Source of the DNA: an uncultured Bifidobacteriales bacterium
GTDB taxonomy: Bacteria; Fibrobacterota; Fibrobacteria; UBA11236; JADFYW01
Assembly (NCBI GenBank): GCA_964603925.1
Contig: CAZRWX010000001.1
Coordinates: 5,489-69,488 of the forward strand
DNA length: 64,000 bases
Direction: 5' to 3'
Positions 134 through 16,765 of this stretch are shown in pieces; position 1 is the stretch's first letter, and every line of letters starts with the position of its first letter. Under the pieces are notes generated by a model that saw nothing but the letters and a program-made list of their open reading frames with translations, did no database searches and was not told where the DNA came from. The position numbers and the translations under genes are program-made.

Positions 134-385
134 TTTAGCCTGCCTTGTATCTAAATGGTTAATCTATTTTGGACGAAAAATTAGAAAAGATTTTAAAAAA
201 GCATTATGTACCAGCAATCACTAGCGGCCGCATTTACCGAAAAGGCCATTTTTCGACATTTTGAGACAATTGCTCATATTTTAAACATCTATCAACATTT
301 GAACATTAAAAAAGTACAATCGTTCATTTATTGAGCGCCATAATATCAACTTTAGCTTAAATTTAGTATAGGGTTTAAAATATAT

Positions 386-2128
386 GTGACTATGGAAAAA
401 CCAGAAAAAATAGGTCAATATACCATACTGAAGTTCCTTGGTCAGGGTTCTGTTGCAACGGTTTTTGAGGCTGAGCATATCCTGGTAAAGCGCCGTGCGG
501 CTATAAAAGTGCTTAAACATGATACCCATCAAAATGATTTTTCTCAGGAAGATTTTGTAGAAGAGGCCCGCAAGCTCGCTCAGCTGGAGTCCCCCAATAT
601 TGTTAATATGTATGAGTTCGGGTTCCACGAAAACTCACCCTATTTTGCCATGGAGATTGTAGATGGCGGCGACCTTCACAGCCTGGTGGAGTCCCGGGGC
701 CGGCCCGATCAAACCATAGCCAGCCTAATCCTGGGCCAAATTCTGGAGGGCCTGCACAGCGCTCATCTCAAAAACATAATTCACCGGGATTTAAGCACCA
801 AAAATGTCCTTATCAATAAACAAGGCAACGTTAAAATTACAGATTTCGGCATTTCCATGGATGGGGGCCAGGTTAAAGGCAATCACACCAATAAGGGCAC
901 TATTCAGTTTCTTTCTCCTGAGCACCTTTCCACCTCTACGCCTACACCAGCATCAGATCTTTTTTCTCTTGGCTCCATTGCATATTATCTCTTTACCGGC
1001 AAATATCCCTTCCAGGGCAAAGACCGGGACGAAATTTTCCAGAATATATTAACTCGTTCATATGACTCTCTACACACTTTTAACAGCAGCCTTTCACCCG
1101 ATCTGGTGGATTTTTGCCACATATGCTTTGGTGAAAGCCTGGATGCACCTTCTTATCAAAAGCTCACAAATAAGCTTAAGTCCTTTTATAAGGAGTATAA
1201 TCTCACAATCTCAGAGGGGCCTTGGCTTATTTCCCAGACATTTTTCGCTCATTCCGGTGAGCGGGATTTTGCCAGGCAGATAATGGATGCCCTTAATAAA
1301 AATCAACGGCGGGTTGCTTTAAACATCTTAAATAATGCGCTTACACTGTTCCCTCAGAGCCCGGTATTGACAGATCTTATATCCCGTATTCAAACCATGC
1401 CCTCAGATGACCCGGGTAAGCTCCCCGAACAGGCCGCTGGTCCTAATACTGTGGGATTTACTCAGGACCTGATGACACGCCAGGTTAGGGTGCCAGCCTC
1501 AGCAGTCAAAAAAAAGTCCCTCTATTGGCCTATTCTGGCTCTGGTTATGGCAGTGCCCCTCATCATTGTCATGCCATCCCGATTAAAGCAGCAAATCCCG
1601 CCCGGACCTGAAAAAGAGGTAAGGCTGCTTAATGCCCTCCCCGACAGCACAGAGCTTACAATTGAAAATAAAATTATTAAAGACACCGACAGCTCCGTGA
1701 GCGCGGCCGCAAACCGGGTTATCAAAATGCCCTCTAAAATGCGCCCCCTTAAAAAGGTTCGGTCTCAAGACCAAAAATCAATTGTCAAAAATAAAGTTTC
1801 CACACCTGTAGATACAGCAGTAAAACCCAAACCCGTAACACCGGGCATACAATTTCCGCCAGGTTTAACAATAGGTGCCGACTCCGCCGCTCTGCAGATA
1901 GCCATTGCCAATGCCAGGGTAAACTTAAACGGCCATTTTTTGGGTTTTAACAAATTGCCTTCCCGCATTTACATAGTTAAAGCCAGGATATACAGTGTTA
2001 CTGTAGAAACCCCCGAATACAGTTTCCGCCGTGCCATACCTTTTAAGGCCGGCCGTTACTATTACTGGGACCCCCTTAATGATATTTTCCGGGAAAAGGA
2101 AGAGAAAAATAAAGAGGCTGTACGCTAA
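386..2128 (+). CDS. Serine/threonine protein kinase (Hanks-type) with C-terminal TM segment and extracytoplasmic tail
   Basis: Gly-rich loop LGQGSVATVFEA, VAIK-like AAIKVLK, catalytic loop HRDLSTKNVLI, DFG, and LSPE (APE-like). A hydrophobic segment LYWPILALVMAVPLIIV follows the kinase domain. The predicted start is GTG at 386; an in-frame ATG at 392 is equally plausible. Confidence 0.9.
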   Translation: MTMEKPEKIGQYTILKFLGQGSVATVFEAEHILVKRRAAIKVLKHDTHQNDFSQEDFVEEARKLAQLESPNIVNMYEFGFHENSPYFAMEIVDGGDLHSLVESRGRPDQTIASLILGQILEGLHSAHLKNIIHRDLSTKNVLINKQGNVKITDFGISMDGGQVKGNHTNKGTIQFLSPEHLSTSTPTPASDLFSLGSIAYYLFTGKYPFQGKDRDEIFQNILTRSYDSLHTFNSSLSPDLVDFCHICFGESLDAPSYQKLTNKLKSFYKEYNLTISEGPWLISQTFFAHSGERDFARQIMDALNKNQRRVALNILNNALTLFPQSPVLTDLISRIQTMPSDDPGKLPEQAAGPNTVGFTQDLMTRQVRVPASAVKKKSLYWPILALVMAVPLIIVMPSRLKQQIPPGPEKEVRLLNALPDSTELTIENKIIKDTDSSVSAAANRVIKMPSKMRPLKKVRSQDQKSIVKNKVSTPVDTAVKPKPVTPGIQFPPGLTIGADSAALQIAIANARVNLNGHFLGFNKLPSRIYIVKARIYSVTVETPEYSFRRAIPFKAGRYYYWDPLNDIFREKEEKNKEAVR

Positions 2129-2130
2129 AC

Positions 2131-2850
2131 ATGATTAAGATTATAATCAAGTTTGTCAGGGGTATGACTCTCCCGGTCTTTCTGGGATTAAACCCTGTGG
2201 TATGGTCTCAGAAGGCAAATACAACCTCCAGTCCTGTGGATTCCAGGCAGATATTGGAGGAGGGGGTTCAAGCCTATTTTCAGGGCTCTTACTCCAAAAG
2301 CTTGTACTTTCTTATTGAAGTATTAAAGGACACCGCCCTGGAACAGGAATACCAAATTATCCGCTGGGAGTACAGCGCTATATCGGCCGCCATGCTGGGG
2401 CGTGATTCTGTGTCAGCAGTGTATTTTCTTAATATACTCAATCTCAACCCCAACTGGACCCTGGCCAGTAACCAGAAGCACCCCAGCGTTGTAAGTAATT
2501 TTAATAAAGCCCGTTACCAGCTGGACAGCCAAAGGCTTAAAAGTCAGCTGGGTGTAATTGCCCCGCCGCTGCCTCAGCCTTTTAATTTTAAGCGCCTTAT
2601 GCCCCTGGGCATACCACAGTTTGATGACCGCAAGCCCCTGCCCGGCCGCATTCACCTTTTGACTCAGGTTTTAGGCAGTGCTATTGCCATTTACTCAAGT
2701 TACCAAATAACCCGTATACTTAACGGGCAAGACGAGATCACCATGTCCACCTCTAGACGGATAAAAAATTATCAGAACATCGGGCTTATTGGCATAAGCC
2801 TCAGCATTACCAGCTACGGGATATCTATCTGGCAAAGGAACACCAAATGA
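2131..2850 (+). CDS. Hypothetical membrane-associated protein (N-terminal signal/anchor, TPR-like helical region, C-terminal TM)
   Basis: The ORF sits 3 bp after the kinase stop and overlaps the next gene by 4 bp, consistent with translational coupling. N-terminal hydrophobic LPVFLGLNPVVWS; C-terminal IGLIGISLSITSYGISIW. No family recognised. Confidence 0.5.
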   Translation: MIKIIIKFVRGMTLPVFLGLNPVVWSQKANTTSSPVDSRQILEEGVQAYFQGSYSKSLYFLIEVLKDTALEQEYQIIRWEYSAISAAMLGRDSVSAVYFLNILNLNPNWTLASNQKHPSVVSNFNKARYQLDSQRLKSQLGVIAPPLPQPFNFKRLMPLGIPQFDDRKPLPGRIHLLTQVLGSAIAIYSSYQITRILNGQDEITMSTSRRIKNYQNIGLIGISLSITSYGISIWQRNTK

Positions 2851-4682
2851 ACGGTATTATACTGGCAGCATATCTGCAATTTAAAGAAAATAAGCAAAAG
2901 AAATTTCCTATTCAAAGGATGGTTACCACCATAGGCAGGGGCATGAGCAACGACCTGAGCCTGGAAGACCCTACTATATCCAGTTTACATGCCAATATCG
3001 TACAAAAAGAAAACACTCACGCAATTTTTGATATGGGCAGTCGTAATGGCTTAAGCGTCAATGGTAAAAAATGTAAAGAATGTGTTTTAAATCATGGTGA
3101 TGAAATACAGTTAGGCAGTATTTACCTGATTTATTATAACCAGCGGGTTCTCGATGACGGCGATACAGGCCTGGACAATCTGCTTACATCCATTCAAACT
3201 ATGGATTTCAACTCATCTAAAAAGGAGATCCTTCAAACTGTTACCAGCCTTAAAGAAAAAGAGGTCGGTTTTCAGTTCCTGCTCTCAGGTATAGCCGCCA
3301 TGGGTAAAAGTCTGAATATTAATGAACTTATCAATAACCTGCTGGGCCAGGTGTTGGACTTACCCGACATGGGCAATGCCTGGGTGTTGGAACATACCGG
3401 TAAAAAGTGGAATCTTATGGCGGGTAAAAAGGAGAGCGTGGATCTTCAGCCTCAGCTCTTTACCTATCTGAATACCCATGAGAAATGCACCTTCCAGTAT
3501 CAGGACAAAGCCTACGCTTCCTTCCCAATTAAGATACATGTAAATGGCTCCCTGGGGGCAGTACTTACAAACACTCAACCACGTAAATTCCCGTCTCAGC
3601 TCATTATGGGACTTTGCTTTTATGCAGCTCAGATGTGGCAAAACCTTATTCTTCAGGAAAAAACCACTAAAAAAATTGTTAAAGGGCTGGTGGACGAAAA
3701 TACCGCTCTCAAAAAAAGGCTTGAAGAGCACACCGATTGGGTGCCCATGGATGATGTCACGAAAAAAATTGCCCTGCAGGTGGAAAAAATGGCCCCATCA
3801 GAGCTGCCAATAATGATAACGGGGGAAACAGGAGTAGGCAAATCTTATGTAGCCCGCCATATACATAACATGAGTACCCGCAGGGGCAAAGCTTTCATCA
3901 CCATAGATTGCGCTACTATCCCAAAAGATCTTATTGAAAGTGAGCTCTTCGGCCATGAAAAAGGTGCCTTTACCAGCGCCGACAAGCTGAAAGCCGGAAA
4001 AGCCGAAGCCGCCCAGGGGGGCACCCTTTTTTTAGATGAAGTTGGAGAGCTCAAGCCGGATACTCAAGCCAAGCTACTGCGCCTGGTACAAGACAACGAA
4101 TATGAGAGAATAGGAGGCACAGAGCTGCTGGCTGCCAATGTGCGCATCCTGGCTGCCACCAACCGTGATTTGGAGACCCAGGTTAAATCCGGCAAATTCC
4201 GCAAAGACTTGTACTATCGGTTGTGTGTGCTCCATATACATTTACCCCCCTTAAAAGAGCGGAAAAATGAAATTGAATACCTGGCCAACTTCTTTATAAA
4301 ACGCGCAGCGCCTCAGGAGGATATCGTCATCCCTGGAGATGTCATGAAAATTATGAGATCCCACCCCTGGCCCGGCAATATACGTCAGCTGGAGAACGCG
4401 GTAAAAAGGGCCTGCGTATTAAATTCTGAGGGGGAAATAACCCTGGAGCACCTGGGGCTGAAGGAAGGTTATGAGGATGAAACCCGCAGCGGCAATACTG
4501 ACATCACCACCCTTAGCCTGGCAGATATAAGAGAGCGCAGCGAAAAGAGCGCCCTAAAAGAAATTCTCGCCAAAAACAAAGGCCACCTTTCAAAAACATC
4601 AACCCAGCTGGGTATCGCCCGCAATACTTTAACCGCTCTGCTTAAAAAATACAACCTGGACAAAGACACCATTACCGGCTGA
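2847..4682 (+). CDS. Sigma-54-dependent transcriptional activator with N-terminal FHA domain (FHA-GAF-like-AAA+-HTH)
   Basis: FHA signature (TIGRGMSNDLSLEDPTISSLHANI...GSRNGLSVNGKK). AAA+ sigma-54 interaction domain (Walker A GETGVGKS; ESELFGHEKGAFTSA, a GAFTGA variant; Walker B LFLDEVGEL). C-terminal Fis-type HTH (TSTQLGIARNTLTALLKKYNL). Confidence 0.9.
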   Translation: MNGIILAAYLQFKENKQKKFPIQRMVTTIGRGMSNDLSLEDPTISSLHANIVQKENTHAIFDMGSRNGLSVNGKKCKECVLNHGDEIQLGSIYLIYYNQRVLDDGDTGLDNLLTSIQTMDFNSSKKEILQTVTSLKEKEVGFQFLLSGIAAMGKSLNINELINNLLGQVLDLPDMGNAWVLEHTGKKWNLMAGKKESVDLQPQLFTYLNTHEKCTFQYQDKAYASFPIKIHVNGSLGAVLTNTQPRKFPSQLIMGLCFYAAQMWQNLILQEKTTKKIVKGLVDENTALKKRLEEHTDWVPMDDVTKKIALQVEKMAPSELPIMITGETGVGKSYVARHIHNMSTRRGKAFITIDCATIPKDLIESELFGHEKGAFTSADKLKAGKAEAAQGGTLFLDEVGELKPDTQAKLLRLVQDNEYERIGGTELLAANVRILAATNRDLETQVKSGKFRKDLYYRLCVLHIHLPPLKERKNEIEYLANFFIKRAAPQEDIVIPGDVMKIMRSHPWPGNIRQLENAVKRACVLNSEGEITLEHLGLKEGYEDETRSGNTDITTLSLADIRERSEKSALKEILAKNKGHLSKTSTQLGIARNTLTALLKKYNLDKDTITG

Positions 4683-4686
4683 CAAT

Positions 4687-6396
4687 ATGAGCATACAAAA
4701 GAATATTATTTACCTGACCCGGGTGCTTGTAGTTATGGGTCTTTTGTTTGTGCCGGGGTGCAACCTGTTTCAGAATATTGAGCCGGATACTGTGAACCCC
4801 GTAATACTTAAATTCACTGATGAACGCACCGAGATGCCCCTGACCGGCCGCAGCCTTATAATAAACAATACCACGGTAATTACACACGACAGCCTTGGCA
4901 CAGCCACCCTGGGCAAGTTCACCGCCGGGGCCCATACTTTTGTAATACAGGATAATGGCATATACACCGATTCGGCCTACTTCCCAAATACTGTCACCAT
5001 TAATATATCCGCCAAGTTCACCAGTTATACCATCAGGATGAAAAGGAACTATAGAACTTGGGGCTATGTGGCTTTCAATACAATTTACCCCCCACTCACT
5101 GTACCCAACACCCAGGAGCTTAATTTAAAAGGCAAAAAGGAGCTGGACCTGCTGCGGCCGGTATATTACTGGTACCTGAATGATTCTCTGATTGGCAAAA
5201 CCTACAACCCCGAACACAAGATATACCTGGCTGATTCACTGTCTCAATTTATATACAAAGTGGTTGTACTGACAGATGAAGTGGAAGCCGATAATCATGA
5301 CACCATAGGTACAGCCACCAGCAGCCTGCTGCCTAATCAATACCCCAGAAATAACAGGCAGCCAACTCTCTCTTTTTCAGGGTTTCAGCAACCGGGCTGC
5401 CAGCCCGGAAAGTTAGAGTTTGTAGTTCATGACCCCGATGGAGATCTTACTAACAATGCTATGGGAAGCCCTGGAATGGAAATCAGCATACCCGGGCGTC
5501 CCGGGCAGTGGAAGGTTAAATTCACCTATGTATCAAATGACTCCATAACGGGTTATTTTTCTCTGGGTTCACTGGATTACTCCCAGGACAGCACTGTGCA
5601 TATATATGCAGCCTATTTTGAAAAATATGACAGTTTGAGTAATTTTAAAGCCCGACGTTACCAGACAGACACTGTCTTTTCAATCAACCCCTATACTGTG
5701 CCCAATCTCGCTATCAGCGGGCTCAGTGGCACGCCATACTATTGGGGGGACACTATAAGGACTGTGCTCGAATCTAACACCCAGCTCATTTATAATAACC
5801 CAGGTACCGCGCGTCGTTTTTTCATGTACAACGACACCTCTATTATCAATCTAAGCCCCATGATACTTAGAAGTGAATCTTTAACTATGACTATACCGGA
5901 TAATTTTGATTTCCACAAGCTGACAATAACAGGCCGCGACACAAACACTCTTTATACCCGTTTTACCGCTTTGACTACATGCAACGATACAATAGAAGCC
6001 ATTGACAGTATCACCTTTATTAATCCGGGTATTGTCACTGACCAGGGGGATACAGTCAATATCCCCCTTATTAACACACCTGACACAGTAAGCGACACCC
6101 TGGGGTTCTCCATAACTAACAACCCCAACAAGGCCTTTCACTCATTTGTATTAAACTGGGGTGATGGTTCACTTGAAGAGATCCTGCCCAGCGACGGCAG
6201 CAACTACTACCGCCCAGGGCATAATTTCATTGTTAAAGACATTAAAAGGTATTATGAAACTATTGAAGGCAGCAGTTTTATATTTATACATGGCAAGTTG
6301 CGTATTACCGCCAGGAGAGACGTCGGCTACGCGGGTATTCAATCTCTGCTCACAGTTTCAGTAAAGTATCAGGTCCCCGATACTACTGGTAATTAG
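4687..6396 (+). CDS. Predicted lipoprotein with PKD-like domain, function unknown
   Basis: Signal peptide plus lipobox LLFVPGC. A C-terminal FVLNWGDGS motif resembles the PKD-domain WDFGDGS signature. Starts 5 bp after the activator gene's stop (4682), so probably in the same operon. Confidence 0.6.
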   Translation: MSIQKNIIYLTRVLVVMGLLFVPGCNLFQNIEPDTVNPVILKFTDERTEMPLTGRSLIINNTTVITHDSLGTATLGKFTAGAHTFVIQDNGIYTDSAYFPNTVTINISAKFTSYTIRMKRNYRTWGYVAFNTIYPPLTVPNTQELNLKGKKELDLLRPVYYWYLNDSLIGKTYNPEHKIYLADSLSQFIYKVVVLTDEVEADNHDTIGTATSSLLPNQYPRNNRQPTLSFSGFQQPGCQPGKLEFVVHDPDGDLTNNAMGSPGMEISIPGRPGQWKVKFTYVSNDSITGYFSLGSLDYSQDSTVHIYAAYFEKYDSLSNFKARRYQTDTVFSINPYTVPNLAISGLSGTPYYWGDTIRTVLESNTQLIYNNPGTARRFFMYNDTSIINLSPMILRSESLTMTIPDNFDFHKLTITGRDTNTLYTRFTALTTCNDTIEAIDSITFINPGIVTDQGDTVNIPLINTPDTVSDTLGFSITNNPNKAFHSFVLNWGDGSLEEILPSDGSNYYRPGHNFIVKDIKRYYETIEGSSFIFIHGKLRITARRDVGYAGIQSLLTVSVKYQVPDTTGN

Positions 6397-6523: not shown

Positions 6524-9112
6524 CTACAAACCACCAGCTCCATACTGCTGATAAACCCGCTCCAAATCTGCAAGACAAAAATGGCCGCCCTTTTTAATTG
6601 CCAGGCCCGCCTTTAAAAGAGTTACAGCCAGGTCATTGAAGCCTTTACCATGCCAGTACCCACCCAGATACTGCAGGGCTTTAATTTTAAGAAGATTGTA
6701 GTCGGCGGGAATAAAAGTCTGTTTTTCCTCAAAAGCCAGTAGTTTGGTATACCAGATGCAAGCCTCTTTGGGGCTTCCCGCCTTCTCTTCCAGCTGGGCT
6801 TGTAGAAGCACTGTCTCTGGATGAACCTCCACCTGGGTCAGGCCAATTTTCAAGGCATTGCGCGCCACGTCATATTGCCCCAGCTTCATAAGGGCATGGG
6901 CCGTTTTGGCCGGCCCTATCTGTATTATATGTGGATCAGTATTTGTTTTTTCGGCTAATTCCACTGCCTGCATAAAGTATTCAACAGCTTGGGCATTGTC
7001 ATCCAGATCCAGATAAGCATGCGCCAGCGTATACAATGTAACAGGCGTTATATTATTATCAGCCTTAATTTGCTGTTCCAGGAGATCACGGTTTCGAATT
7101 TGCTTTTTGCGCGAAACTTCTTCATTATGATAACCCGTATGGATAATTTTAATATCCGTATATTCTACAGGTATCCCCGCCCTCTCCAGGGAAGGCAGCA
7201 CCTGCTCATGAACCGGAGACTCAAAACGTACATCAGGACGATTGGGGAACAACCTTACCTGATTAAAAAGTGAGCCGGTATTACCCCCATCAGCACTGTT
7301 CTGGACCAAAAAACCATAAGCCTTTAGGCCTTTTACAGACTTCCAGTCAGGACCAAAGTCCCGGGCTAAAAGAGCGGGTATGGCTACTTTATCCTTCTCA
7401 AGCAAAATGTCATCGGCATCAAGCCACATTATCCAGTTCCTCCGGGCGCTATCCAGGCTCACATTACGGGCCTGGCTGAAGTCATTTTGCCAGGGGGAGT
7501 TTACCACTCTGGCCCCAAAGTGCCGGGCCACCTGGATAGTATTGTCTGCCGACCCGGTATCTACTACTATAATTTCATCAAAAAGCCCCTGGGCACTTTG
7601 CAGACATTTAGTCAAGTGCTCCTCCTCGTCTTTAGCGATAATGCAAAGACTTAAACCTGGGGTAAGCGCCCCTGTGCCGGCGGGGCCCGCTTCAGGGGTA
7701 CTTGCAGCAGCCTGGTAAGTGTTTGCTTCACCGGGCCACGGCATGTCGGGGAACTGCGACCTGGCCTGGGAAAGGTATTGATTTACCGCGGCAGTATCTC
7801 CTGACAGCCTGATAGCATGAATAACTTTCTGGTAAATGTGGGGATTGCGTGCGGGATTAATTTTTAAAGCCTCCCGGTAGGCTCCCAGAGCCTCATCACC
7901 CCGGCCTAATGCCTCAAAGCATTCGCCCAGACCCGTCCATAACTCCACTACCTCTTTGTAGTTGACTTTCATTTTTTCAAACCATTCCACCGCTTCAGCA
8001 AAATTACCCTGGGCAATGAGGATGCGTGTAAGGAAGTGATAGGCATAAATTTTAACGGTGTCATATTGATTGGCTGTGCTGGAGTGTCGCAGGGGCATCT
8101 CTATAACCTGGACGAATATATCCCGGGCTTCGTTTAGCCTGCCCTGCTCCTGCAGGGCCTCTGCTTTATGAAAAAGGGGCTCTAACTTATTTTTGTCCAG
8201 TTCCCGGGCTTTGTCAAGCCATTCAATAGAATCCTGATAACGTTTAAGTTTTAAATAACCCAAACCTATATATATTGGAATAGTGGCATATACATCGCGA
8301 TTAATTTCCAGCAAATCGGGTATGGCAAAAGCCTTTTTATAGGCGCTGATACCTTTTTCCCATTGTTCCAGAATAAAGTAAGAATCCCCGCAGCTCATGG
8401 TAAAGGTTGGGTCTTTGCCAAGAAGGTCCCCCTCCTCAGAGGCAACCAGCTCCAAATTGCGTCTGGCCTTTTTCTTTTTGGCTTCATCATTCTCATAACC
8501 GGTATGGTGTATGATAGTTTCAACATATTTACAGTGAACGCCCAGCCGCGCGGCGCTGTATACAAACTGCTCATGCACCTTGCGCTCAAAACGGATATCG
8601 GGATGATTGGGGAACATGCGCACCTGCATAAAGCGCGCCCCCCAGGCCTGACCAGCCTGGGTATTAATTACCTGAAAACCAAAAATTCGATCCAAAGGGG
8701 CGGTCTTAAGTTTTAAAAACGCTGCTACCTGATCGGGGGGAATACGGTCATCAGCGTCCAGCCACAGCACCCAGGAGCAATTGGCCTTCTCCAGACTCTG
8801 ATTGCGCGCCAGACTGAAGTCACCCTGCCATTGGGTTTGGAACCAGGTAACATCTAGACCATTGAGGATATCCTGGGTACCATCTACAGAACCGGTATCA
8901 TTGATTATAATTTCGTCCGCAAACGGCAGAAAAGACTGAACCGCCCCTTCAATATTTTTAGCTTCATCTTTAACAATCATTATAATGGAAAGAGTATTGG
9001 GCGGATAGGGGAGTTTAAAGGGGCTTTTTATGCGGCCAAAAGCCTTGTTAATGTCCTTGGGCAGGCCGTCCCTGCCAGCCATGGAGGATATTTTAGAGCT
9101 GTACTTTTTCAC
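6524..9112 (-). CDS. Dual-GT2 glycosyltransferase with TPR repeats (GT2-TPR-linker-GT2-TPR), SunS-like GT-A domains
   Basis: Two GT2 domains: SIIMIVKDEAKNIEG...IIINDTGSVDGT...QWQGDFSLARN...WVLWLDADD and LSLCIIAKDEEEHL...IIVVDTGSADNT...PWQNDFSQARN...WIMWLDADD. TPR-like helical repeats sit between and after them. A Pro/Gly/Ala-rich linker (ASTPEAGPAGTGALTPG) separates the halves. Confidence 0.85.
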   Translation of the reverse strand: MKKYSSKISSMAGRDGLPKDINKAFGRIKSPFKLPYPPNTLSIIMIVKDEAKNIEGAVQSFLPFADEIIINDTGSVDGTQDILNGLDVTWFQTQWQGDFSLARNQSLEKANCSWVLWLDADDRIPPDQVAAFLKLKTAPLDRIFGFQVINTQAGQAWGARFMQVRMFPNHPDIRFERKVHEQFVYSAARLGVHCKYVETIIHHTGYENDEAKKKKARRNLELVASEEGDLLGKDPTFTMSCGDSYFILEQWEKGISAYKKAFAIPDLLEINRDVYATIPIYIGLGYLKLKRYQDSIEWLDKARELDKNKLEPLFHKAEALQEQGRLNEARDIFVQVIEMPLRHSSTANQYDTVKIYAYHFLTRILIAQGNFAEAVEWFEKMKVNYKEVVELWTGLGECFEALGRGDEALGAYREALKINPARNPHIYQKVIHAIRLSGDTAAVNQYLSQARSQFPDMPWPGEANTYQAAASTPEAGPAGTGALTPGLSLCIIAKDEEEHLTKCLQSAQGLFDEIIVVDTGSADNTIQVARHFGARVVNSPWQNDFSQARNVSLDSARRNWIMWLDADDILLEKDKVAIPALLARDFGPDWKSVKGLKAYGFLVQNSADGGNTGSLFNQVRLFPNRPDVRFESPVHEQVLPSLERAGIPVEYTDIKIIHTGYHNEEVSRKKQIRNRDLLEQQIKADNNITPVTLYTLAHAYLDLDDNAQAVEYFMQAVELAEKTNTDPHIIQIGPAKTAHALMKLGQYDVARNALKIGLTQVEVHPETVLLQAQLEEKAGSPKEACIWYTKLLAFEEKQTFIPADYNLLKIKALQYLGGYWHGKGFNDLAVTLLKAGLAIKKGGHFCLADLERVYQQYGAGGL

Positions 9113-11820
9113 CCCCCCACTCCCCCATTGGATATTTTAGCCTTTAGCTGGGCCAGTAACTTACCCAAATCTGCTGAAGGCTGTTTTATATTCTGCAGGT
9201 CCCCGTAAGCCTTTGCCAAATCCCCATAGTCATTCATCCATTCAGTAAAGTATACCAAAAGTGTAGGGTCCCCCGAGTATGTATGCAGAGCCTCAATATA
9301 GATTTTGTAGGCTTCCTCTGAACCAGGCATAAGGGCATTAAGGCATTTACCCCTGAAGGCCTCTATAACACCTGAGGACATATGTATGTCCGGATTATTT
9401 TCAAAGGTCTCCAGCACCTCGGAATAACGCTCATTTATCATTAATTGTTCCAGATAATTTTCCCACATCACCATGTCATTATTAAAGCGGCTTAAATACA
9501 GCCTGAAATATTTTAGAAGATCTTCAAGGGCCCCCGCCTTCTCAAAAACCTCCACCGGAATTTTATAATCCAGGGGGAAGTTTTGAAGACCTCCGTCAAT
9601 AAGCTCCTTCAGGCACTCCAGAGACGGGTGCCCGGGTTTTAAAGCCCCGCCCCCTGACTGCTCAAGCAGTACCATATACCCCAGCACATTTCTGCGGATA
9701 GTGGTATTATCTGAAGCAAAACGGGATACTTGTATGGGTTTACTTTTTATAATTCTGAATAATTCCAATGCCTTTGGATAATCTTGAGCATCCAGGGCTT
9801 TTTTTGCCAGCCAGTACCAGGAGAAAAGCCCCCCGGGGTTCCAATGCCGGGCTACATCGTACCATTTCTGCGCCTGGGCACTCTCCCCCATTTTATCATA
9901 AGCATTAGCAATAAGCTCAGGAAAAATTTTCACATCTTCCTGCGCTGGTGTCACTTCCAGGTTACTCCAGACCCCCAGTTGCCGTAAAACACCTTTGTAA
10001 AACTCTATTGCCAGTTTATACTCCCCCCGCTGATAATGGCAATTTCCCATTTCCATATTTACCACAGGGTCTTTCGGATGCTCTTTTATCTCATCCTGCA
10101 TAAGAGTAAAATTTCTGTTCAACTTTTTTTCCCTGTTTTCAGACAGCTCATAACCAGTATGGATTATGGTTATATCTACATCCTCCACTGGTATATTTTT
10201 CTCTTTTAGTGAGGTACCCAGCTGTTCATGTACTTTACCCGTAAACTGTATACCCTTATTATTGGGAAACAGACGGATTTGACGAAAAGCCTCCCGCTCT
10301 CCAGTATCTCTGGGACTCTCCACAATAAAACGATAAGCACATGAACTATCTATATTCTGATTTTCCCTGCTATTTGTAATTTGCCTTACCTGCTCCCAGA
10401 ACCCATCAGGGAGCCTGTCATCAGCATCCAGCCATAACAGCCATGGTTTATCAGACTGGTTTAAAGAAAAATTACGCGCTGCGGAAAAATCATTATTCCA
10501 CTGATAGTGGTATGTATTGATATCATTTTCCTTTAAAAAGCTTAATGTTCCATCACTGGAACCGGTATCTACAACTATCAATTCCACCTGTTCGCCTGGA
10601 ATCTGGGCAGCAAGTTCTTTAAGGTTCTGTTCCTCATTTTTCACAATCATACACACAGACAGATTAGGGCCCGAACCACCTTCAGACACCGGCGCCCTGT
10701 GCTCATGACTCTGTTTGTGCAGATCCTGTTTCGGGATCTTCTGCTCCGGCAGTTTCTGCTCCGGCAGTTTCTGCTCCGGCAGTTTCTGCTCCGGCAGTTT
10801 CTGCTCCGGCAGTTTCTGCCGCACATGCCTCAATACTTCCCGTGCGCCATCGAGAATAGAATCCCAGTCTGTGGGAATTGTCCATGGCGGTATGGGAAGT
10901 GAAAGCGCACTTTCCAAACACTTAGCCGCATTGCGGAAATTACCCAGAACAAACTCAACCTTGCCGAACTCAAACATGTACTGAGGATTATGTGACCCTA
11001 AATCCAGATTTTTCTTAAAGAAAGTTACGGCTTCAACAGTATGCCCGGCCAGGGCCTTACACTGACCAAGGTAGATGTGGCTGGCAAGATAGACATCCTC
11101 CTGCTGATCACGGGAACCCGAAGTCTGGATTATACGCTCATAGAGATCATTGGCCCGGTCAACATCCCCCCTTACCTGAATAGTACGGGCCAGGGAAAAA
11201 AGAATTGAAGTAGGCGCTGCAGGCTGTGCTGCCAGCTGTGTCATTATATTCAAATTTCGTTCAATCTTTGTTGTTAGAGAGGCTTCATCGCTGTAACCTA
11301 CATGGAGTATTTCGCAAGGAGCCTTAATGCCCAATAATGCCTTTTGTTTAATAGAAAGAGACAGGGACTCGTGAATGGGATTAGTAAAAAACAGGCCCAA
11401 TCCGTTAGGTACCAGACGTATCTGGTCAAAACTGTTGGTACTGCCGTCAGCTTGAGGAGACTTAACTGAGAATAAATAAACATGGTGCCTGGACAGCGTG
11501 CTGACATTATTAATAAACCACTGGCTGGTATCCGGCAGGAGCCTGTCATCGGCATCCAGCCACAGCACCCACTGCCCCCCACACTGTTCCAGCCCGAAAT
11601 TACGCGCCTTGGAAAAATTATTATCCCACTGCCGTCTGAAAACCCTGGCCTGACGACCGGTAGCAATATCAATGCTATTATCGGTACTGCCTGTATCTAC
11701 CAGTACCACCTCAGTGGCCACCTTTGCCCGTAAGCTTTCCAGAGAGTCAAAAAAACCTGGAAGCCGGACTTCTTCATCCTTAACGATAATAGTGATTGAA
11801 AGAAGGGGGTTTGGTGTCAA
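9109..11820 (-). CDS. Dual-GT2 glycosyltransferase with TPR repeats and (KLPEQ)n linker, paralogue of the 6524..9112 gene
   Basis: Two GT2 domains: LSITIIVKDEEVRL...VVLVDTGSTDNS...RQWDNNFSKARN...WVLWLDADD and LSVCMIVKNEEQNL...LIVVDTGSSDGT...YQWNNDFSAARN...WLLWLDADD. TPR-like repeats are present. The interdomain linker reads KLPEQKLPEQKLPEQKLPEQKLPEQKIPKQ. Its 4-bp overlap with the downstream gene suggests translational coupling. Confidence 0.85.
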   Translation of the reverse strand: MTPNPLLSITIIVKDEEVRLPGFFDSLESLRAKVATEVVLVDTGSTDNSIDIATGRQARVFRRQWDNNFSKARNFGLEQCGGQWVLWLDADDRLLPDTSQWFINNVSTLSRHHVYLFSVKSPQADGSTNSFDQIRLVPNGLGLFFTNPIHESLSLSIKQKALLGIKAPCEILHVGYSDEASLTTKIERNLNIMTQLAAQPAAPTSILFSLARTIQVRGDVDRANDLYERIIQTSGSRDQQEDVYLASHIYLGQCKALAGHTVEAVTFFKKNLDLGSHNPQYMFEFGKVEFVLGNFRNAAKCLESALSLPIPPWTIPTDWDSILDGAREVLRHVRQKLPEQKLPEQKLPEQKLPEQKLPEQKIPKQDLHKQSHEHRAPVSEGGSGPNLSVCMIVKNEEQNLKELAAQIPGEQVELIVVDTGSSDGTLSFLKENDINTYHYQWNNDFSAARNFSLNQSDKPWLLWLDADDRLPDGFWEQVRQITNSRENQNIDSSCAYRFIVESPRDTGEREAFRQIRLFPNNKGIQFTGKVHEQLGTSLKEKNIPVEDVDITIIHTGYELSENREKKLNRNFTLMQDEIKEHPKDPVVNMEMGNCHYQRGEYKLAIEFYKGVLRQLGVWSNLEVTPAQEDVKIFPELIANAYDKMGESAQAQKWYDVARHWNPGGLFSWYWLAKKALDAQDYPKALELFRIIKSKPIQVSRFASDNTTIRRNVLGYMVLLEQSGGGALKPGHPSLECLKELIDGGLQNFPLDYKIPVEVFEKAGALEDLLKYFRLYLSRFNNDMVMWENYLEQLMINERYSEVLETFENNPDIHMSSGVIEAFRGKCLNALMPGSEEAYKIYIEALHTYSGDPTLLVYFTEWMNDYGDLAKAYGDLQNIKQPSADLGKLLAQLKAKISNGGVGG
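10726..10815 (-). repeat. Five perfect tandem copies of a 15-bp unit (ctgctccggcagttt) plus one degenerate flanking copy, in-frame inside a GT gene
   Basis: Direct reading shows copies at 10741-10755, 10756-10770, 10771-10785, 10786-10800 and 10801-10815. 10726-10740 (ctgtttcgggatctt) is a 10/15 degenerate copy. On the minus strand this encodes (QKLPE)5. Confidence 0.9.
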
Positions 11821-11872
11821 AATTATTTACGAATTATGAAAAACAGGCATTAGCCAGCTATAGAGTCCGTTC

Positions 11873-14800
11873 TCAGCCGTGAAATGAATCTACAATATTC
11901 TTAACCTGTTCCAAACCTGGATCTATCTGCAAAGCAGAACTGAGACGGTCTTTAACCTTGTCCTCCAGACCCAGGATTCTGGCATTTTCCCACAAATTAA
12001 GAAGACTGTCCTGGTCCAGCGGGTTAATTTCCACTGCTGTAGTAAACAGCCTGTGGGCATCCTGATACATGCTTTGCTTATGGGCAATAATACCCAGGCC
12101 ATTATAAGCGGCAAAGCAATCCACCCTTTGCTCTACCAAATCCAGGTATATAAGAATAGCGGGGCTTAATTCCCCTTTGTTTAAATGCTCTTCTGCTTTG
12201 GATAAAAGATCGTTAATATTGTCAATAGATTCAAAATTCTTAATGAGATAGATTTCTTCACCACGCGCCTTTATTTGATGTAGGATTTCGGTGGCCTCCC
12301 GGTTATGGGCGTCTGTACTAAGGAAACGGTCGAGAAAAGGCCGGAATTTATCGATAGATTTCAACTTAAGGGCTACATCAAAAGCATTTATGAGGGCATC
12401 AGTATAAATAGGGTGAATCTCCAGAGCTTTGGAAAAATAATCCCAGGCCCTGTCATAATCTCCCTCATACCAGGCTACCAGCCCCATATTATTAACGGCT
12501 CTGAAATTCTGCGGGTCCTCTTGCAGAATACTTTCAAAAACCTCCCGGGACTTCTGCATCATGCCTTCACGGATAAGGTTTTCTCCGGCAAGGTTTCTCT
12601 CCCGGCTGGATATTATCTTCTCCGGATCCCAGCTACCCTCCCGGGACTCAAGCTTGAGCTGATCGTAATAGTGCTTGATTTCTTGAAAATCTTTGCTTTT
12701 ACCGGGGTAGGAGAAAACCTTTTCCAGAGTACCCAGCACCTCACTTTTATTACCTAAAACTATGCCGGCATCGCAATAATTAATGAGAACATCCTCATCA
12801 AGCAGGTTCAATTCAACGGATTTCTTAAAATGATCCCACGCCATTTTAACATCACCGCATTCAAAGGCAATAATGCCCAGATAGTTATAACAAAAAGCCT
12901 GATGATGTCCGGAGTTCAGGATCTCTTCCAGAAGATCCAACGCTTCACCATAGCGCTTTTCAGAGATAAGATTTTCCACATGTACCCGCCAATGCTCTTC
13001 AGTATCAGCTTTAGGCGCTGTGCGTTTTTTCAGCTCTCCTAAAAAAACCGGATGAAAGGGGAATGTTACCAAAAAAGCATTTAAACATTTAGCTACCTGA
13101 TCCTGCGCACAGGCCTTTTCCAATACATCTATTATATTATTGGCAATATCGGTGTCTGTGGGGTTAAGCTCCAGAGCTTTGCGAAATAGCTGAAGGGCAT
13201 CTGTGTGATTATTATCATGAAAAGAGATTATACCCAGACCATTATATACCTCTGAAATAGAATCATCTAAACCCTGAGCTTTGAGGAATAGATTCCTGGC
13301 TGTATCGAAATCACCCTTTTCGTAGAAATCATTGGCCTCACTGACCAAGTCGCGCACATCAGGTTTTTCTTTTTCCGAAACAATATCGTTCAGAGCCGCA
13401 GCCCCATGGCTCCATTTTTCTTTAAACTTTACCATGTTTTCCTTCATCATCTGCTGCCAGTCTACGCTGTTGCTGCTGAAACTGGCACTGCCGAAATGAA
13501 ATACGAAAGAATCATGAGCAATAAGAAGGCGGTAACCCATATATTTGGCCCGAAGACAATAATCGTCATCCTCAAAATTGCCCTTGCCATAGCGCTCGTC
13601 AAAAAAGCCGATTCTATCAAAGGCCAGCTTGGGAATTAACATGCAAAAACCCGTTATACGCTCAAACTCCATAGCCTTTAAATCATTCTCTTTTTGCCAT
13701 TTGCTCCCAAAATCTTGAATCTCCAATTCAGTATTGAGTTTGGTATCGGGTATAACCTGAGGTCCGCTGATATTATTGGACCGGGGCCCTATTATGCCAA
13801 TCTGTGAACTGCACTCGGACAGGCGCACCATATTCTCCAGCCAGCCAGGCACAACAATGGTGTCGTTATTAAGTACCATGAGGTAATCACCCTGCGCAAC
13901 TTTCAGCCCCTGGTTCCAGCCCTTTGCCACACCCAGATTTTTCTCATTGATAATAACTTTTGCTCCCGGGATAGAATTAAAGTATTCGCCTGTGCCATCG
14001 CTGCTGCCATTATCTACCAATATCAGTTCAAAACTCTGACGGGTATAAGCGGTTATGGATTCAATACATTTTTTTGTAAGGGCCAATTGATTAAAACCAA
14101 GAATAACTATAGAGACACATTTCTTTAGACTATGATCTACATTGCGGTTGTAGCAAACTACCTGTAAACCCTGTTCTGTTCCAGCGCAGCCTTCCTGGGG
14201 CACGCCCGAATAATCTTCCACAGAATCTACAGCAAACCCCGCTTGCCAGCCAGCATTCATCAGAAGTGCTTTTAACTGCTCTGGTTTAATATCTTTACTT
14301 GTTTGCTTACCGTCCGCTGTTTGAGTAACATAAAGCAGTATGGCTTGTTTCAGGCCTGGCATTTTATTGCGCAGTAGCCCAACACGAAGACCTGCCTCCC
14401 CCAACTCGCCGGGAAAAACCCTTATAACCGCCATATCCTGGTCTTCAGCTTTGACCTCTTGCCCGGAAAGACTGAAGACTTTGTCATTTGCTAAATCAAT
14501 AAATACGGGGCTTTCGGCGTTTTTTAAGTGCCGGGCCAAACTCTGGGGAAAACCTGATAAGTCTACCCGGGTAGTACCTTGCTCCGGAACTGTAATTGAT
14601 ACGGCCCCATTATGCTCCAGAACGGGTATATCATCAGACTGGACCTGGTCTGTAAAACAGGTCGTAAATCTTTTTAACAGGCTGGGAATATCAATAGATT
14701 CTTTGAGTTGTTTCTCCAGCCATAACTTATCGCATATAAAACCTAAATTATTGAAACTTTGACAGGTATCTGAGTCTGTAGTGAGAGGAATGCGTGTACA

Positions 14801-16114: not shown

Positions 16115-16477
16115 TCAGCTGTTAAAAAGCTGTTCTTTCAGCAGATAAATTATTTTTTCCGCTGTTTCTTTGTCTATGCCGCTACTGGAGGAACCGATAT
16201 TGGACTGCCTGTTCTGATTGGCTAGCGCACGCCTGGCACCAGCGATAGAGTAGCCATCCTCTTTCAACATGGAGTATATCTTCTTAAGTCTTATTATTTG
16301 ATCAGTACCATAACGACGCTGTTTACCCATAGTACGGGGAGTATCAAGATATTGAGGGAATTCTTTTTCCCAATACCTGATAGTGTGGGTGGGGATGCCA
16401 ATTATTTTAGATACATCACCTATACTCACTAAAGCGTCATCTTGCTGTTGAATTTCTACGGCACCTTGCATTATCAT
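16115..16477 (-). CDS. MerR-family HTH transcriptional regulator (short form)
   Basis: IGDVSKIIGIPTHTIRYWEKEFPQYLDTPRTMGKQRRYGTDQIIRLKKIYSMLKEDGYSIAGARRAL matches the MerR HTH pattern (IgevAk..Gvs..TlRyYE..gLl.p.R...g.R.Y...d...l..I..l...G.sl.ei). It lies 42 bp upstream of, and on the same strand as, the 1399-aa GT gene. Confidence 0.75.
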   Translation of the reverse strand: MIMQGAVEIQQQDDALVSIGDVSKIIGIPTHTIRYWEKEFPQYLDTPRTMGKQRRYGTDQIIRLKKIYSMLKEDGYSIAGARRALANQNRQSNIGSSSSGIDKETAEKIIYLLKEQLFNS

Positions 16478-16706
16478 TGCGCCTCCATGGGTTAAATCAT
16501 AAATATTTAGAGCAAATATGATACCATCAATATTTATCCATTTTTTGTTAAAATTCCTAACTTTTTACTTTAATTTTGCCCTTTTTGAGGCAACATTTTC
16601 CTAAACAGAAGTGATGAAAGGAATTTTTTTCCACAAAATATTGAGTAGAGCGGCTTTCAAGTTAGCTGATGCATATTCTATGTAAATGTTATTATCTTTT
16701 CCTTTT

Positions 16707-16728
16707 CATCTCCTGAGTCCAGGAGATG
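16707..16728. promoter_or_regulatory. Perfect 9-bp inverted repeat (catctcctg-agtc-caggagatg) just upstream of a TATAAT box, in the MerR/DUF349 divergent intergenic region; candidate operator
   Basis: Seen directly: 16707-16715 catctcctg, 4-nt spacer, 16720-16728 caggagatg. TATAAT lies at 16733-16738 and the ATG of the + strand gene at 16766. Confidence 0.35.
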
Positions 16729-16765
16729 AGTTATATAATAGTTTGACTTAAATTTGGATGTATAA

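What the first reader, a model, noticed from the sequence alone, without database searches (positions are those of the whole stretch)
386..6396. Ser/Thr kinase - membrane protein - FHA-domain sigma-54 activator - PKD lipoprotein operon (phosphothreonine-to-sigma54 signalling module)
Four tightly linked genes (3-bp gap, 4-bp overlap, 5-bp gap) encode a Hanks-type membrane STPK with an extracytoplasmic tail and a small TPR-like membrane protein. The third gene encodes an NtrC-class enhancer-binding protein whose usual receiver domain is replaced by an FHA (phosphothreonine-binding) domain. The fourth encodes a PKD-domain lipoprotein. The arrangement predicts that the kinase controls sigma-54-dependent transcription through phospho-Thr recognition rather than a His-Asp phosphorelay. 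The sigma-54 contact loop is GAFTSA rather than the canonical GAFTGA, which may modulate or abolish sigma-54 engagement. The module sits immediately next to the unusual glycosyltransferase locus, so it could regulate it or be its target (substrate of glycosylation or regulator).
Basis: partly seen in the sequence, partly recalled or inferred. Interest (0 to 1): 0.6.

Follow-up and report, generated by a model that had tools for sequence, protein, structure and literature searches.

The report
Thr-kinase / FHA sigma-54 activator cassette
Four tightly packed genes encode a membrane Ser/Thr kinase, a periplasmic helper protein, a sigma-54 transcription activator that carries a phosphothreonine-reading FHA domain in place of a receiver domain, and a lipoprotein; it is a diverged copy of a cassette also found in other bacterial lineages, of an already known kind.

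Summary
The four + strand genes exist as described (392-2128, 2131-2850, 2847-4682, 4687-6396; spacers 2 nt, 4-nt overlap, 4 nt). Three calls hold: a Hanks-type kinase with one TM helix and an outside PEGA-like tail; a signal-peptide/TPR-like/two-TM protein; and an FHA + sigma-54 AAA+ + HTH_8 activator. No HMM supports the PKD call. Gene 4 is a near-orphan probable lipoprotein with a weak CarboxypepD_reg-like N-terminus.

The same cassette recurs in at least four other lineages (L093, L094, L007, L004-6/L001-2). In L093 and L094, consensus sigma-54 promoters lie just downstream of it. This supports kinase -> phospho-Thr -> FHA activator -> sigma-54 signalling.

GAFTSA is a rare natural variant (4/120 and 1/80). 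All other AAA+ motifs are intact, so it is probably functional.

A link to the glycosyltransferase locus is only suggestive. The best intergenic sigma-54-like site in the window (16526-16511) precedes a MerR gene heading that operon (66/2000 shuffles).

FHA activators have been known in Myxococcus since 2005, so this is a new member of a known kind. Interest is moderate.

The parts
134..391 (+). Upstream intergenic region of the cassette. It is divergent from a - strand gene that starts near 133.
   Evidence: Sequence read. Sigma-70-like hexamer pairs lie at 253-282 and 292-320. No sigma-54-like site scores well here, so the cassette itself is probably not sigma-54-dependent.
392..2128 (+). 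Gene 1: a membrane Hanks-type Ser/Thr kinase of 578 aa from the ATG. It has a kinase domain, a helical juxtamembrane part, one TM helix and an extracytoplasmic PEGA-like tail.
   Evidence: Pkinase E 2.6e-49 over residues 12-248. It aligns to StkP and PknA. The TM helix is at 376-394. The PEGA match is 19.7-21.4 bits against a cutoff of 20.8. It is 26-33% identical to the cassette kinases of L004 and L093. The juxtamembrane Thr motifs TQDL and TRQV were found.
782..805 (+). Atypical catalytic loop HRDLSTKN. The Lys two residues after the catalytic Asp is replaced by Ser, and a Lys sits four residues after it.
   Evidence: Translation. The cassette kinases of L004 and L093 keep HRDVKPxN.
2131..2850 (+). 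Gene 2: a 239-aa accessory protein with a signal peptide, a TPR-like helical domain, an NF-x-P-x-G-x-x-QF motif and two moderately hydrophobic C-terminal helices.
   Evidence: BLASTP to L007:468-1142 gives E 2e-13. A profile built from the four other cassettes' second genes hits it at E 5.7e-12. Alignments are A2/A3. Hydrophobic segments are conserved in all five homologues. There is no Pfam hit. The TssQ_fam match is sub-threshold.
2847..4682 (+). Gene 3: a 611-aa FHA / GAF-like / sigma-54 AAA+ / HTH_8 enhancer-binding protein.
   Evidence: Pfam results and NCBIfam results. The alignment to 25 homologues is A1. The AlphaFold2 model has pLDDT 78. Foldseek matches the core to NtrC1, FlrC and ZraR at TM 0.84-0.91 normalised to the target.
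2925..3116 (+). FHA domain (residues 27-90) with canonical phospho-Thr-binding residues: G30-R31, S45..H48 and S65-x-N67-G68.
   Evidence: PF00498 E 2.8e-16. phmmer to GarA/Rv1827 and OdhI gives E 1e-10 to 3e-11 with these residues aligned.
3219..3731 (+). Diverged GAF-like middle domain plus a long signalling helix (residues ~125-295).
   Evidence: It occupies the position of the GAF domain in homologues. The model shows an alpha-alpha-beta-beta-alpha-beta-beta-beta-alpha order, pLDDT 57-87. There is no Pfam GAF hit and no BLAST similarity to the homologues' GAF domains.
3963..3980 (+). Sigma-54 contact loop GAFTSA, a variant of GAFTGA.
   Evidence: Translation. Frequencies: 4 of the 120 best homologues and 1 of 80 arbitrary activators.
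4687..6396 (+). Gene 4: a 569-aa probable lipoprotein. It has a CarboxypepD_reg-like N-terminal beta-sandwich and a WGDGS motif at residues 490-495; the rest is of unknown fold.
   Evidence: Only itself was found among 5.8 billion proteins. Full HMMER found one short repeat match. A profile of the fourth genes of L007, L093 and L094 hits residues 21-108 at E 1.4e-5, and aligns 476-495 with their DWGDES motif (BLASTP). The N-terminal hydrophobic segment ends in FVPGC. The AlphaFold2 single-sequence model is unusable, pLDDT 31.7.
16511..16526 (-). Candidate sigma-54 (-24/-12) promoter TGGTATcatatTTGCT. It is a possible target of the activator; the link is unproven.
   Evidence: It is the second-best PSSM score in the whole window and the only intergenic site among the top 17. 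It lies 34 nt upstream of the ATG of the MerR gene. In 66 of 2000 shuffles of the promoter windows a site reaches its score.
16115..16477 (-). MerR_1-family regulator gene at the head of the GT2-TPR operon.
   Evidence: ORF. PF13411 E 1.8e-18.
6524..16072 (-). Three giant GT2-TPR glycosyltransferase genes, convergent with the cassette. They are neighbours and possible, unproven targets.
   Evidence: ORFs. Glycos_transf_2 plus TPR families.

Best explanation
This is a diverged copy of a conserved four-gene envelope-signalling cassette.

Shown from sequence:
- A membrane Ser/Thr kinase has its kinase domain in the cytoplasm and a PEGA-like domain outside.
- Its gene sits next to the gene for a secreted, membrane-anchored TPR-like protein.
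- Next comes a sigma-54 activator whose regulatory module is a canonical FHA domain plus a small GAF-like domain, in place of a receiver domain.
- Last comes a lipoprotein with a beta-sandwich N-terminus.

Inferred mechanism:
- The kinase, probably modulated outside the membrane by the TPR-like partner, autophosphorylates on Thr. Candidate sites are TQDL and TRQV in its juxtamembrane segment. It may also phosphorylate the activator's FHA-GAF linker.
- The FHA domain reads that phospho-Thr.
- This relieves or imposes control on assembly of the AAA+ ring.
- The ring then uses ATP and its GAFTSA loop to open sigma-54 promoters.

In related cassettes the targets appear to be the adjacent genes for secreted LRR and CarboxypepD_reg proteins. 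In this genome the target is unknown. The best candidate is the MerR-headed GT2-TPR operon next door.
For: - Gene order and tight coupling.
- Domain calls.
- FHA phospho-Thr-binding residues aligned to GarA.
- Every invariant AAA+ column of 26 homologues is kept except the loop Gly.
- The AAA+ core superposes on NtrC1 and FlrC.
- The cassette recurs in L093, L094 (source name Chitinispirillaceae), L007, L004-6 and L001-2.
- Gene 2 is homologous across cassettes (E 2e-13 and 5.7e-12). Gene 4 is weakly homologous (E 1.4e-5).
- A PEGA tail is present in the L007 and L093 kinases.
- Of 10 FHA-activator loci inspected, 7 have a Pkinase gene within two genes.
- One genome even encodes a Pkinase-GAF-Sigma54_activat fusion (L004).
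- Consensus sigma-54 promoters are conserved at the same two positions just downstream of the cassette. L093 has TGGCACGGCTCTTGCA at 19.1 bits and L094 has TGGCACTATTCTTGCA at 16.7 bits. Both also carry an AGGAACGG-N4-TTGC site.
- GAFTSA recurs in three other FHA activators. Two of them have sigma-54-like sites beside the gene (L008, L003).
Against: - There is no experimental or structural evidence for kinase-FHA contact, and no multimer model could be run.
- The kinase lacks the catalytic-loop Lys (HRDLSTKN), so it may be weakened or atypical.
- No phosphatase gene lies in the cassette or the window.
- rpoN is not in the window, and the rest of the genome could not be examined.
- The window has no strong sigma-54 promoter. 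Sites with up to 2 mismatches number 31, against 39 expected.
- The best site is a 2-mismatch match 10 kb away, with shuffle support of only about 0.03.
- Myxococcota-type cassette activators have lost the FHA phospho-Thr-binding residues. The FHA domain may therefore work without phospho-Thr in some members.
- My sigma-54 PSSM was built from remembered consensus frequencies, not from a curated matrix.
Confidence: 0.6

Rival explanations
1. The activator is controlled mainly through its GAF-like domain by a small ligand. The FHA domain then serves only as a phospho-independent protein-protein or oligomerisation module. The neighbouring kinase acts on other substrates, such as envelope proteins or gene 2 and gene 4 products.
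For: Nearly all homologues combine FHA with GAF. The Myxococcota cassette activators have lost the GR, SxxH and NG residues yet keep the kinase neighbour. The window kinase has an atypical catalytic loop.
Against: The window's FHA domain keeps every phospho-Thr-binding residue, as do those of L093 and L094. The window's middle domain is so diverged that neither Pfam nor BLAST recognises a GAF domain, which argues against a conserved ligand pocket. Synteny with a kinase is conserved.
Confidence: 0.2
2. The GAFTSA substitution uncouples the protein from sigma-54. It then acts as a sigma-54-independent DNA-binding regulator or repressor that still binds ATP.
For: GAFTGA is the sigma-54 contact loop, and exact GAFTGA holds in 106 of the 120 best homologues. 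The window has no strong sigma-54 promoter. The PexR abstract describes a Myxococcus enhancer-binding protein with non-canonical behaviour (PMC12754779).
Against: Phe and Thr of the loop are kept. GAFTSA recurs in other FHA activators. Position-5 variants GAFTDA and GAFTHA belong to D. vulgaris activators with reconstructed sigma-54 regulons, and are stated there to retain activation (PMC4641369). GAFTDA occurs in 4 of 80 arbitrary activators. All ATPase motifs are intact.
Confidence: 0.1
3. The four genes are neighbours without a shared pathway, so the operon-like packing is incidental.
For: Genes 2 and 4 have no close homologues in 5.8 billion proteins, so they tell us nothing about function on their own.
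Against: The same four-gene order recurs in lineages that share only 21-33% identity. The 4-nt overlap and 2-4-nt spacers imply co-transcription and translational coupling.
Confidence: 0.05

Closest known systems
FHA-domain sigma-54 enhancer-binding proteins of Myxococcus xanthus (Jelsbak, Givskov & Kaiser 2005 PNAS; known here only from its title in the reference list of PMC12288465, and from my own knowledge)
   Same: An N-terminal FHA domain replaces the receiver domain of an NtrC-class activator, with Ser/Thr kinases as the presumed input. Many database homologues are FHA-GAF-AAA+-HTH proteins from Myxococcota, Planctomycetota and Acidobacteriota.
   Different: This copy has a GAFTSA loop and a middle domain no longer recognisable as GAF. 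It sits in a fixed four-gene cassette with a PEGA-tailed kinase, a TPR-like partner and a lipoprotein. To my knowledge no kinase/FHA-activator pair has been demonstrated biochemically.
PknH-EmbR of Mycobacterium tuberculosis (an adjacent Ser/Thr kinase and FHA-containing transcription factor; from my own knowledge; the EmbR FHA domain appears)
   Same: A membrane Hanks kinase is encoded beside a transcription regulator whose FHA domain docks on the phosphorylated kinase.
   Different: EmbR is a SARP/OmpR-type activator of sigma-70-type promoters with a C-terminal FHA domain. Here the output is an AAA+ sigma-54 remodelling motor.
PpkA-Fha1-TagQRST threonine phosphorylation pathway of the Pseudomonas aeruginosa H1 type VI secretion system (own knowledge; reviews PMC10482370 and PMC9993120 were listed but not read)
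   Same: A membrane Ser/Thr kinase, periplasmic or lipoprotein accessory factors, and an FHA reader. Gene 2 gives a sub-threshold TssQ_fam match.
   Different: No type VI secretion genes are in the window. The FHA reader there is a scaffold, not a transcription factor. A PppA phosphatase is present there and absent here.
Classical NtrB-NtrC two-component sigma-54 activation
   Same: The same AAA+ core, lid and Fis-type HTH. Phosphorylation-controlled ring assembly is the expected logic.
   Different: There is no receiver domain and no histidine kinase. The input is predicted to be phospho-Thr recognition rather than Asp phosphorylation.

Membership tests
Bacterial enhancer-binding protein (sigma-54 activator, PF00158) | AAA+ core with Walker A, Walker B, arginine fingers and sensor II | tested here: met
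   GETGVGKS, LFLDEVGE, the RxDLYYRL arginines and PWPGNIRQLEN fall in invariant columns of A1. PF00158 E 6.2e-64. Foldseek TM 0.84-0.91 to NtrC1 and FlrC, normalised to the target.
Bacterial enhancer-binding protein (sigma-54 activator, PF00158) | GAFTGA sigma-54 contact loop | tested here: inconclusive
   The loop reads GAFTSA. Phe and Thr are kept and the second Gly is replaced by Ser. It is a natural but rare variant. Position-5 variants are reported as functional in PMC4641369. GAFTSA itself was not found in any paper.
Bacterial enhancer-binding protein (sigma-54 activator, PF00158) | C-terminal Fis-type HTH for enhancer binding | tested here: met
   HTH_8 E 2.5e-6 over residues 562-602.
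Bacterial enhancer-binding protein (sigma-54 activator, PF00158) | rpoN and cognate -24/-12 promoters in the genome | not testable with these tools
   rpoN is not in the 64-kb window. The source genome was not found. There is one candidate promoter at 16526-16511.
FHA domain (PF00498) | Beta-sandwich with conserved Gly-Arg, Ser-x-x-His and Asn-Gly phospho-Thr-binding loops | tested here: met
   PF00498 E 2.8e-16. G30-R31, S45..H48 and N67-G68 align to GarA and OdhI. The modelled beta-sandwich spans residues 17-96, pLDDT 80-88.
Hanks-type Ser/Thr protein kinase (PF00069) | Gly-rich loop, VAIK Lys, alpha-C Glu, HRD Asp, catalytic-loop Asn, DFG and APE | tested here: met
   GQGSVATV, AAIKVL, EEAR, HRD, N, DFG and SPE are present in the alignment to StkP. 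Pkinase E 2.6e-49.
Hanks-type Ser/Thr protein kinase (PF00069) | Catalytic-loop Lys two residues after the HRD Asp (HRDxKxxN) | tested here: not met
   HRDLSTKN: Ser at +2 and Lys at +4. The +4 basic residue recalls tyrosine-kinase HRDLAARN, which I cite from my own knowledge. Activity cannot be judged from sequence.
PKD domain (PF00801 / PF18911) | A significant match to the PKD profile | tested here: not met
   No PKD family appeared at E <= 10 for the whole protein or for residues 455-569 alone. Only a WGDGS motif is present, shared with DWGDES in the L093 and L094 homologues.
GAF domain (PF01590 / PF13185) | A profile match or GAF fold between FHA and AAA+ | tested here: inconclusive
   No Pfam hit and no BLAST similarity. 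The position matches the homologues' GAF domain, and the modelled secondary-structure order is GAF-like. No domain-level fold search was possible.
PEGA domain (PF08308) | A profile match at or above the gathering score | tested here: inconclusive
   19.7 bits for the whole protein and 21.4 bits for the tail alone, against a cutoff of 20.8. The equivalent tail in L007 scores 25 bits.
Conserved cassette Pkinase-PEGA / TPR-like PxGxxQF protein / FHA-GAF activator / CarboxypepD_reg lipoprotein (defined here) | The same four-gene order with homologous products at each position | tested here: met
   Position 1. Position 2. Position 3. Position 4 is weak: E 1.4e-5.
Bacterial lipoprotein (gene 4) | Lipobox [LVI][ASTVI][GAS]C at the end of a signal peptide | tested here: inconclusive
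   LLFVPGC has Pro at -2, which the usual rule (my own knowledge) does not allow. The L093 homologue has a regular MVSC. No predictor was available.

The most novel reading that the evidence does not exclude
The cassette (PEGA-tailed kinase, PxGxxQF TPR-like partner, FHA-GAF sigma-54 activator, beta-sandwich lipoprotein) could be an undescribed, phylogenetically widespread envelope-sensing pathway. In it, phospho-Thr would replace the His-Asp relay as the input to sigma-54. In this genome it would have been rewired, through a sigma-54 promoter and a MerR regulator, to drive the giant GT2-TPR glycosylation operon next door.
Probability: 0.2. Interest if true: 0.6.

Novelty: new member of a known kind. 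Interest (0 to 1): 0.4.

Why it matters
Sigma-54 activators are the textbook output of His-Asp two-component systems. A compact operon in which a Ser/Thr kinase and an FHA reader take that place would give a minimal system for showing how phospho-Thr recognition gates an AAA+ transcription motor. To my knowledge, that step has been assumed since 2005 but not demonstrated.

The relatives found here make the test concrete. L093 and L094 carry consensus sigma-54 promoters right beside the cassette, so kinase, reader and target promoter are all available on one 8-kb fragment.

For this window itself the practical value is mainly annotation. Gene 4 is not a PKD protein. The activator has an extra GAF-like domain. 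GAFTSA is probably benign.

Tried and rejected
- Identifying the source organism failed. The exact-protein contig look-up found nothing. Cluster look-ups gave no names. Rfam found no RNA genes.
- Word-indexed homologue searches for genes 2 and 4 returned only the query itself. A full HMMER search of 1.84 billion representatives for gene 4 gave one short match to a repeat protein, which is uninformative.
- AlphaFold2 on gene 4 without an alignment was unusable, pLDDT 31.7. No fold search was run on it.
- Foldseek on the activator model returned only AAA+ cores and could not address the GAF-like domain.
- A type VI secretion reading, prompted by the TssQ_fam hit, was rejected. The hit is 24 bits against a cutoff of 65, and no type VI genes are in the window.
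- The simple TGGCAC-N5-TTGCW count is at chance level: 31 sites against 39 expected.
- The unique 24-nt palindrome at 16706-16729 could not be assigned to the activator, to MerR or to the DUF349 gene.
- The literature search for 'GAFTSA' found 0 papers. The Jelsbak 2005 paper is not held in the library.

Full report
**Observation.** Four + strand ORFs occupy 386/392-2128, 2131-2850, 2847-4682 and 4687-6396. The start on record for gene 1 is the ATG at 392. Upstream lies a 250-nt AT-rich region, divergent from a - strand gene. It contains sigma-70-like hexamers and no sigma-54-like element. Downstream, three giant GT2-TPR genes converge on the cassette (6524-16072). The rest of the window is ordinary chromosome: Tol-Pal, LptE, DapF, ribosomal protein S4, MurG, a flagellar rod protein, a GAF-EI (PtsP-like) enzyme and Rnf. 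There is no rpoN and no second activator.

**Gene 1, the kinase.**
- It matches Pkinase at E 2.6e-49.
- It has one TM helix at residues 376-394.
- Its 184-residue C-terminal tail gives a borderline PEGA match.
- Aligned to StkP, it keeps the Gly-rich loop, the VAIK Lys, the alpha-C Glu, the HRD Asp, the catalytic-loop Asn, DFG and (S)PE.
- The catalytic loop, however, reads HRDLSTKN instead of HRDLKPxN. The Lys two residues after the Asp is missing, and a Lys sits at +4. From my own knowledge this recalls the tyrosine-kinase loop HRDLAARN. I cannot judge activity from sequence.
- The cassette kinases of L004 and L093 have the canonical loop.

**Gene 2, the accessory protein.** It has no Pfam hit and only a sub-threshold TssQ_fam match. 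It is nonetheless clearly a member of a small family that always sits between the kinase and the activator.
- BLASTP gives E 2e-13 to the L007 protein.
- The L007 protein matches L004's at E 7e-10, and L093's matches L004's at E 2e-5.
- A profile built without the window sequence scores it at E 5.7e-12.
- All members share an N-terminal signal-like segment, a TPR-like helical region, an invariant NF-x-P-x-G-x-x-QF motif and two moderately hydrophobic C-terminal helices. L093's copy gives weak TPR hits.

**Gene 3, the activator.**
- It carries FHA, Sigma54_activat, AAA_lid_14 and HTH_8.
- The FHA domain aligns to GarA and OdhI with the Gly-Arg, Ser-x-x-His and Asn-Gly phospho-Thr-binding residues in place.
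- In an alignment with 25 homologues, every invariant AAA+ column is kept except the second Gly of GAFTGA.
- The AlphaFold2 model (pLDDT 78) superposes on NtrC1, FlrC, ZraR and LuxO cores.
- Between FHA and AAA+ the homologues have a GAF domain. The window protein has a shorter segment there with GAF-like secondary-structure order, but no detectable sequence similarity.

**The GAFTSA loop.** It occurs in 4 of the 120 best homologues, all of them FHA activators, and in 1 of 80 arbitrary activators. Position-5 variants GAFTDA and GAFTHA belong to D. vulgaris activators with reconstructed sigma-54 regulons, and are stated there to retain function (PMC4641369). Similar tolerance is reported for Clostridiales (PMC6615313). 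I therefore judge GAFTSA to be probably functional. This is an inference.

**Gene 4.**
- It has no homologue in a 5.8-billion-protein index. A full HMMER search gave only one short repeat match.
- No PKD profile matches it.
- A profile of the fourth genes of L007, L093 and L094 aligns its residues 21-108 to their CarboxypepD_reg domain (E 1.4e-5). It also aligns its ...FVLNWGDGS to their ...TIDWGDES.
- It is therefore best read as a fast-evolving positional homologue: a probable lipoprotein with a beta-sandwich N-terminus. The lipobox FVPGC is atypical.
- The single-sequence structure prediction failed.

**Conservation of the cassette.** The order kinase / ~220-310-aa PxGxxQF protein / FHA-GAF activator / secreted beta-sandwich protein recurs in several places:
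- L093 and L094 (53-54% G+C). The source name for the L094 activator is Chitinispirillaceae.
- L007 (52% G+C).
- L004-6 and L001-2 (74-76% G+C). A close homologue is named Myxococcales.

Of 10 FHA-activator loci inspected, 7 have a Pkinase gene within two genes. One genome encodes a Pkinase-GAF-Sigma54_activat-HTH fusion. This argues for a functional kinase-activator link.

The Myxococcota copies have lost the FHA phospho-Thr-binding residues. The FHA mechanism may therefore not be uniform across the cassette.

**Targets.** I built an approximate sigma-54 matrix from remembered consensus frequencies.
- L093 has a perfect TGGCACGGCTCTTGCA 26 nt before a CarboxypepD_reg/BsuPI gene, and AGGAACGGAATTTGCA before an LRR gene. 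Both lie immediately downstream of the cassette.
- L094, about 50-56% identical at the protein level, has TGGCACTATTCTTGCA and AGGAACGGCAATTGCT at the same two positions.
- This conservation is the strongest evidence here that the cassette's activator drives sigma-54 promoters next to it.
- In the window those downstream genes are absent.
- The best correctly placed site in the window is TGGTATcatatTTGCT at 16526-16511 (-). It lies 34 nt before a MerR_1 gene (16115-16477) that heads the GT2-TPR operon.
- It is the second-best score in the window and the only intergenic site among the top 17. Even so, 66 of 2000 shuffles of the promoter windows reach it, and plain consensus counts are at chance.
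- The link to the glycosyltransferase locus is thus a lead, not a finding.

**Mechanism.**
- Shown: the domain content, the topology signals, intact FHA and AAA+ residues, conserved synteny, and sigma-54 promoters beside related cassettes.
- Inferred: the kinase's outside PEGA tail and the gene 2 protein form the sensor. The kinase autophosphorylates on juxtamembrane Thr (TQDL and TRQV fit the usual FHA preference for a hydrophobic residue at +3; and my own knowledge) or phosphorylates the activator's linker. FHA binding then switches ring assembly and sigma-54 activation.

**Comparison and novelty.** FHA-bearing sigma-54 activators have been known in Myxococcus xanthus since 2005 (title in PMC12288465). 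They are abundant in databases. PknH-EmbR and PpkA-Fha1 are precedents for the kinase-to-FHA logic (my own knowledge). This locus is a new, diverged member of that kind. I have not seen the fixed four-gene cassette and its adjacent sigma-54 promoters described, but my literature access was limited.

**Verdict.** Interest is moderate at 0.4.

Noticed in passing
L093 11351-11366 and 9402-9417; L094 12076-12091 and 10416-10431: Near-consensus sigma-54 promoters are conserved at the same two positions in two related genomes. They lie immediately downstream of the kinase/FHA-activator cassette, ahead of an LRR protein gene and a CarboxypepD_reg/BsuPI protein gene. L093 also has AACCGGTT-core palindromes 25-45 nt upstream of both.
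   Followed up: partly
L004 16600-17815 (gene runs off the locus): A 1614-aa predicted protein fuses Pkinase, GAF, Sigma54_activat and HTH_8. It is a direct kinase/sigma-54-activator fusion, in the same genome that carries the cassette.
   Followed up: no
window 16706-16729: A perfect 10+10 palindrome, TCATCTCCTG-agtc-CAGGAGATGA, is unique in the window. It lies 37 nt upstream of the DUF349 gene and about 190 nt upstream of the sigma-54-like site. It could be an operator or an enhancer.
   Followed up: partly
window 16115-16477 (-): A 120-aa MerR_1-family gene not mentioned in the finding heads the GT2-TPR operon. It is preceded by a GGAGG ribosome-binding site and by the sigma-54-like -24/-12 element.
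   Followed up: partly
P0005, P0006, P0009, P0018, P0020, P0022, P0025, P0028 (L001, L002, L004-6): The high-G+C (Myxococcota-type) cassette activators have FHA domains that lack the Gly-Arg, Ser-x-x-His and Asn-Gly phospho-Thr-binding residues, although the kinase gene is retained.
   Followed up: no
window 9109-11820 (-), around 10730-10830: The second GT2-TPR protein contains a tandem peptide repeat, (KLPEQ)x5, between its two glycosyltransferase-TPR halves.
   Followed up: no
window 56043-58781 (-): A 912-aa GAF + PEP-utilising enzyme (PtsP / EI-Ntr-like). From my own knowledge, such enzymes usually accompany the rpoN-linked nitrogen PTS, which hints that the genome uses sigma-54.
   Followed up: no
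window 46295-48823 (+) and L007 3170-4351: FGE-sulfatase-domain proteins appear twice. One is elsewhere in the window (842 aa). The other is the fourth gene of the L007 cassette, fused to CarboxypepD_reg.
   Followed up: no
L004 7100-7978 and L001 516-1451: The gene 2 homologues of the high-G+C cassettes carry a Pro-rich C-terminal extension ending in ...LRFQF or ...LSWEF. This resembles an outer-membrane-protein C-terminal signature.
   Followed up: no
L008 6664-6679; L003 17148-17133: The two other GAFTSA-type FHA-FHA activators (P0004, P0039) have sigma-54-like sites in the intergenic region beside them. In L003 the site precedes a polysaccharide (epimerase / Wzy_C-TPR) operon, and a Pkinase gene lies two genes away.
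   Followed up: no
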